Of a DNA stretch of 64,000 nt, positions 49,465 to 64,000 are shown piece after piece (the stretch's first letter is position 1; each line of letters starts with the position of its first letter). This stretch comes from Rubripirellula sp. (lineage in GTDB: Bacteria; Planctomycetota; Planctomycetia; Pirellulales; Pirellulaceae), in contig OZ244207.1 of assembly GCA_965216875.1 (NCBI GenBank), forward strand, positions 6,240,001-6,304,000, given 5' to 3'. Position numbers and translations under genes: made by a program. The notes under the pieces are model-generated. The model saw only the letters and a list, made by a program, of their open reading frames with translations, searched no databases and was not told the origin of the DNA.

Positions 49465-50496
49465 ATGTCAAAACCACGATTACTGATTCAATGGATCGTG
49501 GGTTTGGCCCTTGGGACCGCGTTGATTGCAGCGACCTCGCCCTTTTTCGTACGCAGCTACGTTCCGCTGAGCGTAGATCAAACACGCAATGTTTGGACCA
49601 TGCCGCCAGGGCGACTTTACCGTTGGCGAAGCGAAGGTTACGCAAACACTTCGGTGGGGCCGCTTGGCATGCCAGGCAAAACCGAGTTGCCGCCGCGCGA
49701 CGAGCGGATGCGAGTTGCGTTGTGGGGTGATTCGCAAGCCGAAGGTGTCTGCGTTGTCGACCACCAAAAGCTGTTTCATCAAACCGAGATTGCTTCGGGT
49801 AACAAGGCGGTCGTTTTTCCGCTCGTCCGAAGTGGCGAAGATGCGGCAACGTGGCTGACCCAGATGCCACGTGTCGAAGCACCGCTCGCGATCGACGCGC
49901 ATGTGTTCTTGATTGTCGACTTGCCGGATCTGCAAGCCGCCATTAGCGCACCGATTGATCCACCGTCCGAGGCCGACATCCAGCAAGCCAATGCCGCGCT
50001 GGCATCGCGTTTGCCGGCGTTTGTGATCCAGACGGCTCGACATCTGTTGTACGAAAACGATGGTGCGACGCGTCGCCAATTGCGGTTTTCGATCGGGCCG
50101 ATCCAGCAGGACGAATCCAACACGCAGAACGCCGCTTCGGCCAATAACGGAAGTGCCATCGATTGGTCGCCTTCGACTCGAGCGGTACGAAGAACAACCA
50201 ACCTGCCGGTGGTCATTATCTACGCGCCGATCTTGCCACAGATTTTCTATGGCAAGCTACTTGTCGACGATCCAAACGAAGATTCGTTCAGTCAACTTCG
50301 CAAAACAGCCGAACAAGCCGGGATCGCCGTGATCGACATGCGGCCAACGTTTCGTGAGTCAATGCAAGACGGAGCGTTCGCGCATGGCTATCACAACGGT
50401 TTGATCGGAAACGGACATCTCAACGCAACCGGCTACAAACTTGTCGCCGAGGCTTTGGCGACGACCCTTGCTCAAATTGCAAACGAAGGCGAGTAA
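49465..50496 (+). CDS. SGNH/GDSL-like periplasmic protein (AlgJ/AlgX/PatB-like O-acetyltransferase partner)
   Basis: N-terminal anchor, block I ALWGDSQAEG, block V-like NGHLNATGY; adjacent to the MBOAT gene. Confidence 0.65.
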   Translation: MSKPRLLIQWIVGLALGTALIAATSPFFVRSYVPLSVDQTRNVWTMPPGRLYRWRSEGYANTSVGPLGMPGKTELPPRDERMRVALWGDSQAEGVCVVDHQKLFHQTEIASGNKAVVFPLVRSGEDAATWLTQMPRVEAPLAIDAHVFLIVDLPDLQAAISAPIDPPSEADIQQANAALASRLPAFVIQTARHLLYENDGATRRQLRFSIGPIQQDESNTQNAASANNGSAIDWSPSTRAVRRTTNLPVVIIYAPILPQIFYGKLLVDDPNEDSFSQLRKTAEQAGIAVIDMRPTFRESMQDGAFAHGYHNGLIGNGHLNATGYKLVAEALATTLAQIANEGE

Positions 50497-50502
50497 GGCG
50501 GC

Positions 50503-52065
50503 ATGCTCTTCACCCAAATTGAGTTCCTCGTTTTCTTTGCGGTCGTCGTTGCCGCGACGTGGATGGTGCCAAAGTTCGTTGGTGAGCCGTCCACTTCAGA
50601 AGACCCCGAGGTGGAAGAACCACCTCCCGAAGAAACGACATCCGATAAGCAAGAGCAAGAGCAAGAGCAAGAGGACGCGGACACTGACGCCGAGACGGAC
50701 CCCGAGGAATCCTCCGCGCCAGTGCGAGTGAAGCGACGTGATCGGAATCCGGCACGCGGTCAGCGGAACTCGATCCTGCTGTTGGCGAGCTATTACTTTT
50801 ACGCCTATTGGGACTATCGCTTTTGCGGGTTGCTACTGCTTTCTACGGTGGTTGATTACGTCGTTGCAAAGCGCATCGAAGCAAGTGACGACCAGGACAC
50901 ACGCCGCTCGCTCTTGTTGGTCAGTTTGTTTGTCAACTTGGGCGTCCTCGGCTTCTTCAAGTACTTTGGGTTCTTTGTTGAATCGGCCGCGCCGTTGGTA
51001 GAATCGTTTGGGATGAGTCCGACCACTTTGGACATCATCTTGCCGGTCGGTATTTCGTTTTACACCTTTCAAACGCTTAGCTACACGATCGATGTCTATC
51101 GGCGAGTGATTCGCCCGGTGAATCGGTTCCTCGACTTTGCACTTTACGTTGCGTTCTTTCCTCAGTTAGTTGCCGGTCCAATCGTTCGAGCGCGTGAGTT
51201 GCTCCCACAACTCGCAACCGTTCCGGAGTGGTCGACTCGCCGGTTCTATGGCGGCGCCCAGCAAATGTTGCGCGGTGCGGTCAAGAAAGTCTTGCTTGCC
51301 GATCGACTTGGCGAAGCGGTCGACGTGGTCTTTGCCGGCCCCGACCTTTACTCGGGCGTCACGATTTGGATTGCCGTGATCGCCTACGCAGGGCAAATCT
51401 ACTATGACTTTTCGGGCTACAGTGACATGGCGATCGGTGCCGCCAAGATGCTGGGTTATCGCTTTCCAATTAACTTTCGGCATCCGTACCTTTCGCGATC
51501 GATGGCCGAGTTCTGGCATCGTTGGCACATCACGTTGTCGAGGTGGCTGCGCGACTATCTGTACATTTCGCTCGGTGGCAATCGAATCAGCAGCTTGTCG
51601 ACGTACCGAAACCTGATGATCACGATGACCCTTGGCGGTCTATGGCATGGTGCGGCGTGGACGTTCGTGTTGTGGGGTGTTTGGCATGGAGCTGCTCTCG
51701 CCATTGAGAGATTCGTCAGAGCAAAAACCAACATTGCACTTCCCTCCCCTGTCGCGTGGTTGGCGACGATGACCGTCGTACTTGTTGGATGGGTGTTGTT
51801 CCGAGCTCAGGATCTCGAAACGACTGCGATCCTCTTGGAGCGGATGGTGACAATGACTTCGGGCGTTGACTGGTTCCCGCCACTCACGTTGCTTGCGATT
51901 TCGATTCTGGTCATCGAACACGTCGCCTGGCGCACGCGACTGCGAAGAGCGATGCGACTACCATGGGATGCTTGGTATTCGCCCATCGCCACCGCCGTCA
52001 TGGTCTGGGCGATCGTGCTCTATGCACCCCAGGGATTCCGGCCGTTCGTCTACTTTCAGTTTTGA
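50503..52065 (+). CDS. MBOAT family O-acyltransferase (AlgI/PatA-like)
   Basis: LPVGISFYTFQ, FFPQLVAGPI, IYYDFSGYSDMAIG, FWHRWHITLS, GLWHGA, FVYFQF. Confidence 0.95.
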   Translation: MLFTQIEFLVFFAVVVAATWMVPKFVGEPSTSEDPEVEEPPPEETTSDKQEQEQEQEDADTDAETDPEESSAPVRVKRRDRNPARGQRNSILLLASYYFYAYWDYRFCGLLLLSTVVDYVVAKRIEASDDQDTRRSLLLVSLFVNLGVLGFFKYFGFFVESAAPLVESFGMSPTTLDIILPVGISFYTFQTLSYTIDVYRRVIRPVNRFLDFALYVAFFPQLVAGPIVRARELLPQLATVPEWSTRRFYGGAQQMLRGAVKKVLLADRLGEAVDVVFAGPDLYSGVTIWIAVIAYAGQIYYDFSGYSDMAIGAAKMLGYRFPINFRHPYLSRSMAEFWHRWHITLSRWLRDYLYISLGGNRISSLSTYRNLMITMTLGGLWHGAAWTFVLWGVWHGAALAIERFVRAKTNIALPSPVAWLATMTVVLVGWVLFRAQDLETTAILLERMVTMTSGVDWFPPLTLLAISILVIEHVAWRTRLRRAMRLPWDAWYSPIATAVMVWAIVLYAPQGFRPFVYFQF

Positions 52066-54410: not shown

Positions 54411-56909
54411 TTAGTTTCTTGGTTTCAGGCCATTGTGTGTTGCCGTCGCCGCCGTTGGATCTTCGGGCCAATGGTGTTTGGGATAGCGACGGCGAAGGTC
54501 TTTGCGGACTTGAATGTAGGTCGAACTCCAAAAGTTCTGCAAGTCTTCGGTAATCTGCTGAGCGCGATAGTTTGGTCCGAGCAGATGCAATTGAACAGGG
54601 ACGCGGCCACCGGCAATGCGAGGGTTTTCGTTCCAACCAAACAATTCTTGAATCCGCACTTCCATGATTGGGGGTTTTCCATCCGCGTATTGCAGGCGGA
54701 TGGAATTCCCACTGGGGACACGCATCTTTTCGGGGGCGAGTCGATCGATCGTCTGCAACGTTTCGTAGTCATAGCCAGATCGGATGTGGTCCAGCCACGG
54801 CGCTTTTCGAAGCTGGGCGAACGATGTGCGCGACTGGCACAACGCGACAAGGGCGTCGTCAACAAGCTGTTGGGTTGATGGTAATTCGAGCTCCGTCATT
54901 ACCGCTGACAAAAAGCGAACGCGTTGAATGAATCCCTCGAGCTGTTGGTCGTCACTCGGAAAGACTTGATCCATCTGCTGTTTTGCGGCTTCGACCAGCA
55001 TCTCAGCAATCTCGCCACCAGGAGCGCACCGGATCGGTGTTTCTGAAAGCAACAGATCATCGTAGTAGGTGCGGTGCCGCGCGATCACACTTTGCGATTC
55101 GGGCTGAAAAATCGGCTCGTCGACTTCTCGTATGAGACCCTCGTCAAGCCAATGACGCTCAACCGCTGTGGCCAAGCGAACGCGAGCATCGGTATCCCCC
55201 GAGTCCACATCGACGCAAACGAAGAGTTCCGAGTCGCGGACAGACGAATTGCGATCGATTCGGACACCGCGACCGCCAACCATCACTCCCTTGTCACTGG
55301 ATGGTTCGCGTCGGCGTGCGACTCGATCGGGAAAGGCAGACAACAATGCGCGCGATAGTTTCGCACCATGATCCACGCCTTTTGCGTTGATGCTACGTAA
55401 GAGTTGATCGGCCACGCGACGAATCTGTTTCGCGAATGCGGGTTCGATGTCGCCACCGCGATCGCCTTCAAAGAACGCCTTCAAGCGGTCGACGCGATCG
55501 GAAACATCGCATGCTGACAAGGTTTGACTGTCCCGTCGCCGATCTCTTCGAAACGGCGATCGTTCGGTGAGCAACGCTGCTGCGATTGCAGCGTCATCGA
55601 CGATTCCTTGGTCAGCGGCCGAAAGCAGGAACCGGGCAACACGCGGATGAACGGGAATCGAGAGCATCGATCGCCCTAGCTCGGTTACCGAACGCTCCGA
55701 ATCAATGGCGTGCAGTTGTTGCAGTAGCTTGGTCGCCCGATCAACCGCCGAGACTCGTGGTGCCGTCAACCACGGGAAATCGCTGATGTCACGCTCGCCC
55801 CAAGCGAACAGACGCAGTGCAGCAGCGCAAAAATCGGCTCTCTCAATCTCGGCTGTGTCTCGTTCGGGCCGCGAACGATGCACATTGGCCGGCCATAGTC
55901 GAAGGCAACGACCGGCCTGCGTCCGTCCAGCGCGCCCCGCACGCTGCTCGGCGGATGCCTGCGAAATACTCTCGAGTGAAAGTTTCGGCAAGCCGACCGA
56001 CGCATCAAAACGCAGGACGCGCGCGAGCCCGCTGTCGATGACACCCGTCACGCCTTCGATCGTGACCGACGTTTCCGCGACATTGGTCGAAAGAATGATT
56101 TTGCGACGGTCGGACGGTCCGAGCACGTCGTCTTGATCCTTAGGGGAAAGGTCCCCATACAAGTCATGGACATCAAAGTCGTCTCCGAGTGCGGACTCGA
56201 CAATCGCGTGTGTGCGTCGAATCTCACCCACACCGGGAAGGAAACCGAGGAGGTGCCCGGACGTTTTTTCGGCAAGTTCGCGAATTGCATCGAGCATCCT
56301 TTGCTCGAGTGGCGCGTCGCTGTGATGGGCGACGTGAGCAATGTCGACGGGATAGGAACGTCCTTCACTCATCACCGCTTCGGCATCACCAAGAAAATCA
56401 ACGATCGGCCCAGGATCGAGCGTCGCGGACATCACGATCAGGTTGAGCTCAGGTCGCACGGTCGTGCGAATTCGATGGACCATGCCGAGCAGAAGATCCA
56501 TCTCGAGCGAACGTTCATGGAATTCATCCAACACGACGCAGGAAACGTCTTCCAAGAAAGGATCGGATTGCAACTGACGCAGCGCGATGCCCGGTGTGAC
56601 CACAAGAATCCGCGTCGACTTGCTTGATCGACGATCAAAACGAACTTGGTAGCCAACTTCGTCCCCCAGTTTGCAGTTCACCAGAGAAGCAAGCCGAGAC
56701 GCGGCACTACGCGCGGCAAGACGCCGCGGCTGAATCAACAGAATCTTGCCAGCTGGGGTGTCGGCAAACAGCGCGGGCGGAACACCCGTGGTTTTTCCCG
56801 CACCCGGCGGCGCCTTGAGAACCACGGGAACGTTCCGCGCGACCGCATCAACGATCTGCGTCAGACATTCGTTGATGGGCAGATCGTCTTGATACGATGC
56901 CGTCGCCAA
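54411..56909 (-). CDS. hrpB: ATP-dependent RNA helicase HrpB
   Basis: APPGAGKTT, DEFHER, MSAT, TNVAETSVTI, QRAGRAGR, YPKHHWPEDP. Confidence 0.96.
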   Translation of the reverse strand: MATASYQDDLPINECLTQIVDAVARNVPVVLKAPPGAGKTTGVPPALFADTPAGKILLIQPRRLAARSAASRLASLVNCKLGDEVGYQVRFDRRSSKSTRILVVTPGIALRQLQSDPFLEDVSCVVLDEFHERSLEMDLLLGMVHRIRTTVRPELNLIVMSATLDPGPIVDFLGDAEAVMSEGRSYPVDIAHVAHHSDAPLEQRMLDAIRELAEKTSGHLLGFLPGVGEIRRTHAIVESALGDDFDVHDLYGDLSPKDQDDVLGPSDRRKIILSTNVAETSVTIEGVTGVIDSGLARVLRFDASVGLPKLSLESISQASAEQRAGRAGRTQAGRCLRLWPANVHRSRPERDTAEIERADFCAAALRLFAWGERDISDFPWLTAPRVSAVDRATKLLQQLHAIDSERSVTELGRSMLSIPVHPRVARFLLSAADQGIVDDAAIAAALLTERSPFRRDRRRDSQTLSACDVSDRVDRLKAFFEGDRGGDIEPAFAKQIRRVADQLLRSINAKGVDHGAKLSRALLSAFPDRVARRREPSSDKGVMVGGRGVRIDRNSSVRDSELFVCVDVDSGDTDARVRLATAVERHWLDEGLIREVDEPIFQPESQSVIARHRTYYDDLLLSETPIRCAPGGEIAEMLVEAAKQQMDQVFPSDDQQLEGFIQRVRFLSAVMTELELPSTQQLVDDALVALCQSRTSFAQLRKAPWLDHIRSGYDYETLQTIDRLAPEKMRVPSGNSIRLQYADGKPPIMEVRIQELFGWNENPRIAGGRVPVQLHLLGPNYRAQQITEDLQNFWSSTYIQVRKDLRRRYPKHHWPEDPTAATATHNGLKPRN

Positions 56910-60626: not shown

Positions 60627-61478
60627 TTAAGGGCCAGGTTTTAGGGGCCAGTTGTCGTCGACGACAATCAACCTCTCGGACTCTCTTCCCTCACTATCTA
60701 ACACCGCAACCATCGAAGCTGATCGGATCGATCCAGGCCTGGCCGGCGACATCGCGTCGATCAATTGCTTGAAGGTTAATGGACGATGGCCCGCGGCGGT
60801 CAACCAAAAGGGTTTGGCAAGCAGCTCAAACCGCGGCGATTCCTCGTCGCCGTCTAACAGCGACAATTCACTTTTGTGCAACCATCGCCCGCCAAGGTGC
60901 TGGCTTGAAGTCATTGCCGGAAGTTTGGCCTTGGTGGTGTGGCCGAACGGTACAAACAGCCTCCCCTTCACCAGCGCCGCTCGTTTGGTTGGCTGAGGGA
61001 ATCGTTTTTCACAAAGCCGCAATTGGTGATTGAAGAGTCGCTCGAGTTTCAGATCCAGACGGTCCTTCGCATTGGGCCCAACCCAAAGGTCGCATTGAGG
61101 ACGCGTTGGCTTAGGTTGAAGAAAGAACTTGACCGCCGTCTCAAGGTGGACGAACTCACCCTCTTCGTCTTCGAACAAAAAATCAATTTCGCCGACCGTC
61201 TTACCTGAACGTATGACTTGATGCTGATGAGCGATCAGCTTGACCGATCGAATCCGCGTCAGCCAATACAGCACCAGGGATTCGAAGTACCTGCCGACGC
61301 GATAGCAGAGACGATCTTGGATGAACTTGCCGAGGTCGGCTCGATCGATGACATCGGGGTCGATCGAGAACGGATCGCTGGCGTCGCAGGTGATCAACGA
61401 GTTGCTGTTAATCGCCCAGGCGAGATCCGCGGCCAATTGATCACGGCGGTCGTCGTCCATGATCACGCTGTGAGACAT
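60627..61478 (-). CDS. DUF1853 family protein (PD-(D/E)XK-like)
   Basis: RVGRYFE, TVGEIDFL, HLETAVKFFL, GPNAKDRLDLK, HQL; start trimmed to avoid overlap with the divergent kinase. Confidence 0.82.
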   Translation of the reverse strand: MSHSVIMDDDRRDQLAADLAWAINSNSLITCDASDPFSIDPDVIDRADLGKFIQDRLCYRVGRYFESLVLYWLTRIRSVKLIAHQHQVIRSGKTVGEIDFLFEDEEGEFVHLETAVKFFLQPKPTRPQCDLWVGPNAKDRLDLKLERLFNHQLRLCEKRFPQPTKRAALVKGRLFVPFGHTTKAKLPAMTSSQHLGGRWLHKSELSLLDGDEESPRFELLAKPFWLTAAGHRPLTFKQLIDAMSPARPGSIRSASMVAVLDSEGRESERLIVVDDNWPLKPGP

Positions 61479-61544
61479 CTGCGATAGGTAGGTCGGTACA
61501 ATGAATCTTCCATCGCTTGTATTGGCTGGTATCGGGAGTGGGTC

Positions 61545-64000
61545 ATGTTGAATTGGTTGTCTTATCCCTTCGATACCGAAGGATTCCCGCCACGTTGGCA
61601 TTGTGGCGAAGCCTGGCAGGAAGAGCCGTACATCGGATGGCTTCACATCATAAGTGATCTGGCGACGTTCGCCTCGTACTACGCAGTGCCTTGCGTCGTT
61701 GCTTGGTTTGTGATGGGAAAGCCCGAGCGCAAGTTCCCGCCGATCTTTTGGATCTTTTTCGGTCTGGTTTTTTTCTCTTGCGGTAGCGTCCACCTGATCG
61801 AAGCGGGGATCTTTTGGTGGCCGATGTACCGAATGTCGGCGATGCTCAAGCTCGTCACTGCCGTTGTATCGACCATAGGTGTGGTGGTGCTGGCGAGATC
61901 TTTGCCGCGCGCACTCGACTTAAAGACTCCCGAAGAGCTACAGGCCGAGATTGAAGAGCGGCGCGAAGCGGAAGCCAAGCTCGACTTTGAAAAGAACCTG
62001 CTTCACACGTTGATGAATCATCTTCCTGACGCGATCTATTTCAAAGATGCTGATGGAAAGTATTTGCGGGTCAGCCGAGCATTGGCGGACAAGTTGCAAC
62101 TCGATGACGTCGCCGCAGCAACCGGAAAATGCGAATCCGATTTCCTGCAGCCCGAGCTAGCGCAAAAGTTTGTCGAGAGTGACCGCAGGGTCATGATGAC
62201 TGGCGAAACCATCGAAGGTCAGGTTGAACGAGAACCGTGGCGGCGCGGCAATCAAGAACGATGGATCTCGACGACTCGCGTTCCCCTTCGTGATTCAAGC
62301 GGCGAACGTATTGGCACGTTTGGCATTTCTCATGATGTGACCAACATCAAGAACGCAGAAGAACGGCTGACGCGTCTGGCCCAGCAACTTGCACTTCCCC
62401 GTGACGGGGCATCCGAAAAACCGATGCCATTGCACCTGGCCAACTTTGGCCTGCGAGACATGATCTCGTGCGGCAGCGATATCCGCGGGATGGCGATCGG
62501 TCACGAAACACGGCGCGGACTTGATACAGCACTTTCGGAATACTTGTATCAACGCATGAAGGGCAGCGATCGGCAACCCGCGTTCGCATTGGTGCGTATG
62601 TTTCAATCAACCAAGTTTGGCGAGCTGGATGACGAACGCAAGGCCATTGCGACCCGGCTTGCTGGCGGCGCAGAACTCGACGACCAGACGCGGTGCCTGA
62701 CGTTGCAGGGAACGGCGGGGCTTGAGCCCGCGTGGAATGATCGCACGCGATCCAAGTCGCACCGAGTGATCCCGCTTCCCAGCGAGCAAGCGATCAACGA
62801 TCTACCAATGATCGCCCAGTTGCTACGTCAACTCGGATTCAACGTCGATGGTGTGCTTGAAGGACGTATTGAAGCTTCCAAGGACACACGAGCAAACGTC
62901 TTTCATATTGCCAAGGCCCGCGGCTGCGAGTTCATTCCGGATCAGGACGAATTTGTGATTCCGCACGGCATTGAATCGGTCGTTGGATTTGGTGACGTGT
63001 TGCCGAGCGGCGATTTCTTCGCCGTCATTTGTTTTTCGCGGATGCCGATCGATGCCCAGACGGCTGCACTGTTTTCTCACCTTTCCATCAGCACCAAGCT
63101 GGCCCTGCTCGCTCACGAACCGGCAGCCGAAAGAGTCGAGGCCCAGATCATTGCCGTCGATCAATTGATTCAGAATTACGAACATGTGGTGTGTCACCAA
63201 GAATCGAGCTTGCGAAACGCGATGGTCGAACTTGAACAGGCGCGTGATGTCGCCGATGAAGCGAACCGAGCGAAGAGCGAATTCTTGGCCAACATGAGCC
63301 ACGAAATCCGTACGCCAATGAACGCAATCATCGGGATGACCGAACTGGTACTCAGCAGTGATTTGCCCGATACCGAACGCGAATACTTGACGACAGTGCT
63401 TGAATCGAGCGAGTCGCTGCTAAACATCATCAACGAGATTCTCGATTTCTCGAAGATCGAAGCGGGTCGGGTAGAGTTGGATGAAGGCGAACATAACCTT
63501 CGAGATGAAGTCGCCGATATGGTCAAGTCGCTCGCCATTCGCGCGCATCGCAAACAGATCGAGCTGGCCTGCGAAATCGGCAACGATGTGCCCGATTGCG
63601 TTGTCGTTGATGCTGCAAAGTTACGACAGGTGATCCTGAATCTCGCCGGCAACGCGATCAAGTTCACCGAAGTTGGCGAAGTGGTTGTGTCGGTTCAATT
63701 GGAAGGTTTCGAAGGCGACCTGGCTCGGCTCAACTTTTGCGTCACCGATACCGGGATCGGCATCACCCCGCAGCAACAGGTGTCGATCTTCGACGCGTTT
63801 GCCCAGGGCGACGCTTCAACGACGCGACGCTTTGGCGGTACCGGATTGGGACTCTCCATCTCGGCCGATTTGGTTCGTCTGATGGGTGGCCAAATCGAAG
63901 TCAGTAGCCAAGTCGGAAGCGGAAGCACGTTTCGGTTTACGTTGCCACTAAGAGTCGGTGCGAAGAATCAAACTCCGGCGCATCCCGATGCCATCATCGA
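61545..64000 (+). CDS. Sensor histidine kinase (hybrid-type H-box), 3'-partial: ETR1-like ethylene-binding domain, PAS/PAC, GAF-like, HisKA, HATPase_c
   Basis: Translated by hand; absent from the ORF track because there is no stop in the window. [20 protein letters not shown]...CGSVH...[59 protein letters not shown]. Confidence 0.93.

What the first reader, a model, noticed from the sequence alone, without database searches (positions are those of the whole stretch)
61545..61935. Plant-type ethylene-binding domain on a planctomycete histidine kinase (missed by the ORF track)
Seen: the frame from ATG 61545 reads [132 protein letters not shown], with three hydrophobic helices. Established: the Arabidopsis ETR1 ethylene-binding domain has three TM helices with D25, Y32, I35, P36, C65 and H69 (Cu(I) site, CGATH) and a KVLTAVVS helix; functional bacterial homologues are described in Synechocystis and Azospirillum. 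Here D38 (61656), Y45, V48, P49, C79 (61779), H83 (61791) and K102-LVTAVVS keep the same spacings (D+7=Y, D+11=P, C+4=H). Inference: a copper-dependent ethylene or small-alkene receptor feeding two-component signalling in a planctomycete. I know of no characterised example in this phylum. Many Pirellulaceae colonise algal surfaces, so host-gas sensing is a plausible role.
Basis: partly seen in the sequence, partly recalled or inferred. Interest (0 to 1): 0.85.

Follow-up and report, generated by a model that had tools for sequence, protein, structure and literature searches.

The report
Remodelled ethylene-receptor-type kinase in planctomycetes
This gene encodes a bacterial signalling kinase that starts with the membrane domain plants use to sense ethylene, which is common in this bacterial group, but this copy belongs to a distinct lineage that keeps the predicted copper-binding residues while replacing residues of the predicted gas pocket, so it likely binds ethylene differently or senses another small gas.

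Summary
The domain is real: residues 30-126 match Pfam ETR1_N (84 bits, cut-off 27). It heads a 1,221-aa hybrid kinase (ETR1_N, PAS, an uncatalogued GAF-fold domain, HisKA, HATPase, two receivers, Hpt) that runs past the window end. It is not a rarity: 48 of 401 genomes of the phylum carry the domain, and this scan has noted planctomycete copies before on other DNA. These changes are fixed in one clade: 47 of 47 variant homologues share them and keep D, Y, C, H, K, against 0 of 106 canonical ones; 18 of 47 carry the uncatalogued GAF, 0 of 106 others do. Best reading: a likely Cu(I)-dependent gas sensor with a rebuilt pocket and altered affinity or ligand. Binding is untested. New variant of a known kind; interest 0.5.

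The parts
61534..61538 (+). GGGAG, likely ribosome-binding site, 6 nt before the ATG
   Evidence: read from the sequence; function inferred
61545..64000 (+). In-window part (818 aa) of a 1,221-aa hybrid histidine kinase; the gene continues to window-equivalent 65210 with receiver 1 (Asp875), receiver 2 (Asp1016) and Hpt (His1166)
   Evidence: locus L001:6545-10210
61545..61934 (+). ETR1-type (ethylene-binding-domain family) membrane domain, residues 1-130, variant clade
   Evidence: Pfam PF25487 84 bits; alignment with AzoEtr1; tree
61635..61715 (+). Helix 1 (about residues 31-57): D38 (=ETR1 D25), Y45 (=Y32), V48 (=I35, changed; 61686-61688), P49 (=P36)
61740..61808 (+). Helix 2 (residues 66-88): one extra residue before the Cys; V75 (Cys-4, =F61, changed), F76 (Cys-3, =I62, changed; 61770-61772), C79 (=C65), H83 (=H69)
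61827..61916 (+). Helix 3 (residues 95-124): K102 (=K91), S109 (=S98), P121 (=P110)
   Evidence: roles of K91, S98, P110 from PMC10266040 and PMC6586836
62001..62345 (+). PAS domain (residues 153-267)
   Evidence: Pfam PAS_4 E 1e-21
62415..63125 (+). Uncatalogued GAF-fold domain (residues 291-527), member of a large unnamed family; conserved C384, W397, M422, R351
   Evidence: no Pfam or NCBIfam family; AlphaFold2 pLDDT 94.9; GAF matches Z 13.4, rmsd 2.9, 163 aligned and Foldseek; 955 clusters at E<=1e-30; conservation
63270..63467 (+). HisKA phospho-acceptor domain, His586 at 63300-63302
63609..63953 (+). HATPase_c catalytic domain
60627..61478 (-). Divergent DUF1853 gene (283 aa from ATG 61478), 66 bp from the kinase start; no sign that it belongs to the system
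   Evidence: Pfam PF08907; start; not found in the 1.5-kb flanks of 10 variant loci

Best explanation
The gene encodes a hybrid histidine kinase whose three-helix N-terminus belongs to the ETR1 ethylene-binding-domain family and likely binds Cu(I) through C79 and H83 with D38, and whose rebuilt pocket likely binds a small alkene, most probably ethylene with lower affinity and faster release than ETR1, or a somewhat larger one. Shown: family match, residues, clade-wide fixation of the pocket changes, domain order, intact phospho-sites. Inferred: gas binding to the copper would disturb the D38-K102 link, shift helix 3 and the following coiled coil, pass through PAS and the uncatalogued GAF (likely second inputs), and change His586 autophosphorylation; phosphate would then move by His586 to a receiver Asp (875 or 1016), His1166 of Hpt, and an unlinked response regulator elsewhere in the genome. 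On algal surfaces this would act as a short-range, reversible gas cue rather than a trace-level detector.
For: Family: PF25487, 84 bits. Core kept: D, Y, C, H, K in 47 of 47 variant homologues; P36, S98 and P110 equivalents in 37 of 37 closest; these map on AzoEtr1 D35, Y42, P46, C75, H79, K98, a receptor shown to bind ethylene (PMC11819568). D25, C65 and H69 matter for Cu binding and K91 for signal transfer (PMC10266040). Pocket changed: Y32, F61 and I62 form the modelled pocket floor and their Ala mutants lose binding (PMC8879215); I35, P36, I62 are essential (PMC6586836). Here I35=V in 47 of 47, Cys-3=F in 47 of 47 (the sorting feature), Cys-4=I or V in 47 of 47, whereas 106 of 106 canonical hits have I, I and F. 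One clade, SH-aLRT 99, 43 rows. Purifying selection in the domain: pN 0.13 and 0.17 against saturated pS 0.78 and 0.75 for two orthologues; 23 of 28 scored differences to the algal-metagenome copy are synonymous and none changes the membrane domain. Natural lower-affinity receptors that still work have a precedent (D25N; PMC11971883).
Against: No binding or metal data exist for any member. In ETR1 the single change I62F (etr1-4) abolishes measurable binding (recalled from Hall et al. 1999; the paper was not held; I saw only that etr1-4 is ethylene-insensitive), which favours a gas-blind protein. Conversely F61-I62 to (I/V)-F looks like a swap that could restore the pocket fully. The register is not certain: MAFFT places the extra residue at F76, which would make V75 the I62 equivalent; counting from the Cys assumes an unbroken alpha-helix, as the model shows. 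No solved structure of the family was found to model on.
Confidence: 0.5

Rival explanations
1. An ordinary high-affinity ethylene receptor: the Phe and Ile of the pocket floor have traded places and I35V is conservative, so the changes cancel out.
For: Five of seven essential residues plus K, S and P of helix 3 are invariant. The changes always occur together (47 of 47), as compensation would require. In the left-anchored alignment I62 maps to I or V. This genome has no other copy of the domain. A near-identical copy occurs in an algae metagenome.
Against: Canonical relatives tolerate almost no change at these columns (106 of 106; 71, 69 and 68 of 71 in the tree set), and helix 2 also gains a residue and usually loses the F58 equivalent (Leu in 44 of 47). 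Joint occurrence in one clade is one event, not repeated compensation.
Confidence: 0.25
2. A gas-blind derivative: the membrane domain binds copper (or reports copper or redox state) or only anchors and dimerises the kinase in one fixed state, as recalled for etr1-4, while PAS and the uncatalogued GAF carry the real signal.
For: F at the I62 position is the recalled non-binding ETR1 allele; I35 is also changed. The Cu ligands are kept while the gas pocket is not. The uncatalogued GAF is fused in 18 of 47 variant proteins and 0 of 106 canonical ones, and elsewhere serves as an N-terminal input on kinases, SpoIIE phosphatases and cyclases.
Against: 29 of 47 variant proteins lack the GAF (some are fragments). 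Residues tied to ligand binding or signal transfer rather than to copper (Y32, P36, K91, S98, P110) stay invariant, which a mere anchor would not need.
Confidence: 0.2
3. A chance resemblance, another membrane sensor family (MASE, MHYT), a sequencing error or a decaying gene.
For: Lowest-scoring tier of the family profile in the phylum sample; no NCBIfam model for the domain.
Against: Only ETR1_N matches; contigs of public runs carry the same letters; orthologues encode V48, V or I75 and F76 with different codons; the frame is intact over 1,221 aa.
Confidence: 0.02

Closest known systems
AzoEtr1 of Azospirillum brasilense Sp7 (PMC11819568; recovered as L084, 525 aa)
   Same: ETR1-type three-helix domain, then PAS, then histidine kinase; D, Y, P, C, H, K in matching places; H-to-K spacing 19; one N-terminal Cys.
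   Different: AzoEtr1 keeps I45, F71, I72; this protein has V48, V75, F76 and one more residue in helix 2. It adds an uncatalogued GAF, two receivers and Hpt, and has no neighbouring response regulator within about 15 kb either side, whereas AzoEtr1 has one.
Arabidopsis ETR1 (PMC10266040, PMC6586836)
   Same: D25, Y32, P36, C65, H69, K91, S98, P110 equivalents; a GAF-fold domain, kinase and receiver downstream.
   Different: I35, F61, I62 and T68 equivalents are V, V, F, V; H-to-K spacing 19 not 22; a PAS domain intervenes; the GAF is of an unrelated sequence family; output is a bacterial phosphorelay. ETR1 numbering was mapped through AzoEtr1 (offset 10 in helices 1-2), not by aligning ETR1 itself.
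SynEtr1 (slr1212) of Synechocystis and GeiEtr1/2 of Geitlerinema (PMC6682694)
   Same: Multi-input layout with the binding domain followed by PAS and GAF domains and a kinase.
   Different: They keep all seven binding residues; the SynEtr1 GAF binds a chromophore for light sensing, which is not shown for this GAF.
BarA/TorS/ArcB-type unorthodox hybrid kinases
   Same: HisKA, HATPase, receiver, Hpt output (best NCBIfam match BarA, 459 bits).
   Different: Below the curated cut-off (890); different input domains; two receivers.
GAF domains (free Met-R-sulfoxide reductase 3mmh, PtsP GAF 3trc, phytochrome GAFs)
   Same: Fold of residues 291-527: Z 13.4 and 13.2, rmsd 2.9 and 3.2, 163 aligned.
   Different: About 10% identity, about 70 residues longer, no Pfam GAF match in 69 of 69 members scanned; ligand unknown.

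Membership tests
ETR1_N domain family (Pfam PF25487) | Profile score above the curated cut-off | tested here: met
   84.2 bits against 27
ETR1_N domain family (Pfam PF25487) | Three N-terminal membrane helices | tested here: met
   hydropathy; AlphaFold2 helices 28-57, 66-88, 95-124
Canonical ethylene receptors (ETR1, SynEtr1, AzoEtr1) | Cu(I) core D25, C65, H69 | tested here: met
   D38, C79, H83 align with AzoEtr1 D35, C75, H79
Canonical ethylene receptors (ETR1, SynEtr1, AzoEtr1) | All seven residues required for ethylene binding (D25, Y32, I35, P36, I62, C65, H69; I35, P36, I62, C65, H69, D25, Y32 seen in passages; the exact list of seven is recalled from Wang et al. 2006, not held) | tested here: not met
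   Five of seven kept; I35 is V48; I62 is F76 (Cys register) or V75 (MAFFT register)
Canonical ethylene receptors (ETR1, SynEtr1, AzoEtr1) | Signal-transfer residues K91, S98, P110 in helix 3 | tested here: met
   K102, S109, P121; 37 of 37 closest homologues
Canonical ethylene receptors (ETR1, SynEtr1, AzoEtr1) | Saturable, copper-dependent ethylene binding | not testable with these tools
   needs a radioligand assay
Canonical ethylene receptors (ETR1, SynEtr1, AzoEtr1) | Structural match to a solved receptor domain | tested here: inconclusive
   no significant match among solved structures by sequence or fold
Unorthodox hybrid histidine kinase | HisKA with His, HATPase, receiver with Asp, Hpt with His | tested here: met
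   Pfam; H586, D875, D1016, H1166
BarA equivalog | NCBIfam cut-off 890 bits | tested here: not met
   458.7 bits
GAF fold (residues 291-527) | GAF topology | tested here: met
   predicted model, Z 13.4, rmsd 2.9, 163 aligned to 3mmh; top rows are all GAF-type
Pfam GAF families (PF01590, PF13185, PF13492) | Profile match by sequence | tested here: not met
   0 of 69 members match at E<=0.1
MASE / MHYT membrane sensors | Profile match of residues 1-137 | tested here: not met
   no such family at E<=1; none in NCBIfam

The most novel reading that the evidence does not exclude
A planctomycete clade has retuned the ethylene-receptor fold to a different volatile, such as a larger alkene or a sulfur gas released by algae, keeping the copper site and rebuilding the pocket floor, and couples it to an uncatalogued GAF sensor: the first natural ETR1-fold receptor with a ligand other than ethylene, and a natural second-site suppressor set for the etr1-4 position.
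Probability: 0.2. Interest if true: 0.85.

Novelty: new variant of a known kind. Interest (0 to 1): 0.5.

Why it matters
How ETR1-type domains reach high affinity and selectivity for ethylene is still an open question (PMC10266040 calls it unresolved) and no solved structure of the domain was found. A clade of at least 47 sequence clusters that keeps the copper core but fixes changes at three near-invariant pocket positions is a ready-made test set: one binding assay with a few back-mutants would show whether these positions set affinity, ligand size, or neither. It also warns that a Pfam ETR1_N hit with Cys-x3-His is not enough to call an ethylene receptor. Second, the kinase carries a GAF-fold input domain of a large unnamed family (955 clusters at E<=1e-30) that has no Pfam entry. 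The mere presence of the domain in a planctomycete is ordinary.

Tried and rejected
Solved-structure searches for the membrane domain gave nothing significant by sequence or by Foldseek. A weak profile hit of the middle domain to IsdI heme monooxygenase (E 0.03) was rejected because the fold searches give GAF. The one scan of named genomes returned a single locus, a canonical copy in Kolteria novifilia, so no cultured, named organism could be attached to the variant clade; the look-up of cluster members could not be made. DUF1853 linkage: not found in the 1.5-kb flanks of 10 variant loci (short flanks, weak test). No separate receiver or Hpt gene between window-equivalent 46000 and 80000 using the protein's own domains as queries. 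Alkene/phenol monooxygenase family PF02332: no match in this genome, but the control rang nowhere, so uninformative. Expression: no RNA holder listed. Runs X6 and X8 gave only short scattered pieces and are not used as habitat evidence. Promoter and terminator scan: promoter-like sites at chance level. Literature: 'ethylene receptor' with 'planctomyc' gave 3 papers, by their listings unrelated; four searches for the I62F/etr1-4 binding result found no passage stating it (and reads 19, 36, 79, 80), and Wang 2006 and Hall 1999 were not held. The careful tree search did not finish; the quick tree is reported. No complex prediction was run, since a homodimer would be the textbook expectation.

Full report
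Observation. It has no stop in the window; in the genome it runs to 1,221 aa. Residues 30-126 match Pfam ETR1_N (PF25487) at 84 bits, cut-off 27, and no other family matches that stretch at E<=1. An AlphaFold2 model from a 29-sequence alignment gives three long helices, 28-57, 66-88 and 95-124.

Anatomy. Pfam on the whole protein gives ETR1_N 30-125, PAS 153-267, HisKA 576-641, HATPase 689-803, two receiver stretches and Hpt 1135-1206; the phospho-sites H586, D875, D1016 and H1166 are present. Residues 291-527 have no Pfam or NCBIfam family. The gene stands alone: a DUF1853 gene diverges 66 bp upstream, the next long ORF downstream is convergent, and no separate receiver or Hpt gene was found between window-equivalent 46000 and 80000. 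It is the only ETR1_N match in this genome.

How common. The domain matches above the cut-off in 48 of 401 genomes drawn from the phylum (51 of 401 at E<=0.001) and, with this protein as query, in 84 of 301 genomes of the family at E<=1e-10; both counts include this genome. A profile search gave 2,972 proteins among 7,991 candidates scored. Earlier AI notes of this scan report intact planctomycete copies on other DNA. So the domain in a planctomycete is ordinary, though two literature searches found no paper on one; surveys in subscription journals (Lacey and Binder 2016; Carlew et al., Small Methods), which I did not see, may list some.

What is unusual. Against the 30 best phylum matches, this protein has V48 where 30 of 30 have I, V75 where 29 of 30 have F, and F76 where 27 of 30 have I. 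AzoEtr1, recovered from its plasmid with D35, C75, H79, K98 as in the paper, has I45, F71, I72 there, that is ETR1 I35, F61, I62. PMC6586836 names I35, P36 and I62 among residues essential for ethylene binding; PMC8879215 models Y32, F61, I62 equivalents as the pocket floor and cites loss of binding for F61A and I62A. That I62F is the allele etr1-4 and abolishes binding is recalled, not seen in a call; I saw only that etr1-4 is ethylene-insensitive. Helix 2 also has one more residue between the conserved F-W motif and the Cys. Counting from the Cys along an unbroken helix (as modelled) puts F76 at the I62 site; MAFFT instead treats F76 as the insertion and V75 as I62. In both readings the site is not canonical.

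A clade, not an error. Contigs of a public run carry the same letters over the whole stretch (X3, possibly this DNA's source), and one contig of an algae metagenome carries it with 33 differences in 2,601 bases; of the 28 of these that I scored inside the ORF, 23 are synonymous and none alters residues 1-130. Among 153 homologues examined (50 of the 51 hits, self left out, and the 103 new ones among the best 120), 47 have F at Cys-3; all 47 also have V for I35 and I or V for F61, keep D, Y and K (C and H by the parsing rule), and have a D-to-C distance of 41 or 43; the other 106 all have I35, F58, F61 and I62. The F58 position is Leu in 44 of the 47. These sets are top hits of planctomycete-like queries, so they do not sample the whole family, and weak matches (44-77 bits) were not read. 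In a quick maximum-likelihood tree of 114 rows (11 near-duplicates dropped; careful search unfinished; SH-aLRT only; midpoint root) the variant forms one branch with support 99: 42 labelled rows plus P0096, which my pattern mis-parsed there but which has the variant motif. In the family sample the variant was read in 11 genomes among the 30 loci fetched. For two orthologues pN is 0.13 and 0.17 against saturated pS of 0.78 and 0.75. Because the changes sit on one branch, their joint occurrence is one event and does not by itself prove compensation.

The hidden domain. Residues 291-527 found 76 relatives of 130-415 aa, named 'hypothetical' where named at all apart from three kinase labels; 0 of 69 aligned members match a Pfam GAF family. 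The AlphaFold2 model is confident (pLDDT 94.9) and matches GAF domains: free Met-R-sulfoxide reductase Z 13.4, rmsd 2.9, 163 aligned, PtsP GAF Z 13.2, phytochrome and phosphodiesterase GAFs by Foldseek. The family has 955 clusters at E<=1e-30 and 1,539 at E<=1e-10. Of the best 150, 144 have it at the N-terminus and 52 are 300 aa or shorter; of 50 longer ones scanned (of 78 chosen), at least 30 carry a HATPase domain, 5 SpoIIE, 3 GGDEF, 1 a guanylate cyclase domain, the pattern of an input domain. It is fused in 18 of 47 variant receptors and 0 of 106 canonical ones; 8 of its 15 matches in 301 family genomes lie in variant-receptor genes.

Mechanism. Shown: family, residues, clade, selection, domain order. 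From established work: D25, C65 and H69 contribute to copper binding and D25-K91 is proposed to pass the signal to helix 3 (PMC10266040); AzoEtr1(1-130) binds ethylene and needs D35 and C75 for function (PMC11819568); a D25N receptor with about 100-fold lower affinity still works, and such variants occur in cyanobacteria (PMC11971883). Inferred: this protein binds Cu(I) and a small alkene in a reshaped pocket (by recalled side-chain volumes the three changes leave slightly more room), signals through PAS and GAF to the kinase, and relays through its own receivers and Hpt to an unlinked regulator. I put 0.5 on altered affinity or a shifted alkene ligand, 0.25 on a fully compensated ordinary ethylene receptor, 0.2 on a gas-blind copper or anchor domain. 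The algal link rests on one metagenome of one study.

Papers seen. Passages only: PMC11819568, PMC10266040, PMC7700396, PMC6913735, PMC6682694, PMC6586836, PMC9603746, PMC2923533, PMC8879215, PMC11971883, PMC7020288, bioRxiv 10.1101/2025.11.28.691086 (80). No supplements were read; the alignment of 1,221 domains behind PMC10266040 may already contain such variants. Wang 2006 and Hall 1999: nothing seen, recalled.

Verdict. A correct family call of an ordinary domain, with an overlooked twist: a conserved planctomycete clade with a rebuilt pocket and an uncatalogued GAF. It works like an ETR1-type sensor kinase; it fails the seven-residue test for a canonical ethylene receptor. New variant of a known kind; interest 0.5.

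Noticed in passing
window 62415-63125 (+): Uncatalogued GAF-fold input domain of about 240 aa; large family (955 clusters at E<=1e-30), stand-alone or N-terminal on kinases, SpoIIE phosphatases, GGDEF and cyclase proteins; near-invariant R351, C384, W397, S403, M422, F453, F470.
   Followed up: partly
window 60627-61478 (-): DUF1853 gene divergent from the kinase, 66 bp apart; its first-start ORF call overlaps the kinase gene, the likely start is ATG 61478.
   Followed up: partly
window 61593-61607 (+), residues 17-21: An R-W-x-C-G motif before helix 1 is invariant in the 29-row alignment; AzoEtr1 has P-H-G-V-C-L there. The single Cys may link dimers, as suggested for cyanobacterial receptors.
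   Followed up: no
matches of 44-77 bits (e.g. G694:C167:33259-33642, G527:C157:65243-65626, G632:C231:9959-10333): A further group of divergent ETR1-like domains on kinases of about 1,070-1,170 aa in the same family; residues not read.
   Followed up: no
L007 and L008 (G360, G308): ETR1-like domains with Thr at the I62 position and C-A-N-T-H instead of C-G-x-T-H.
   Followed up: no
G401 (three matches), G506 and G634 (two each): Some genomes with the variant receptor hold further copies of the domain; whether these are canonical was not read.
   Followed up: no
window 49465-52065 (+): A membrane-bound O-acyltransferase-like gene (50503-52065) behind a putative SGNH-type gene; named by eye from the translation, not tested.
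   Followed up: no
window 54411-56909 (-): HrpB-like DEAH-box helicase gene, named by eye from the translation.
   Followed up: no
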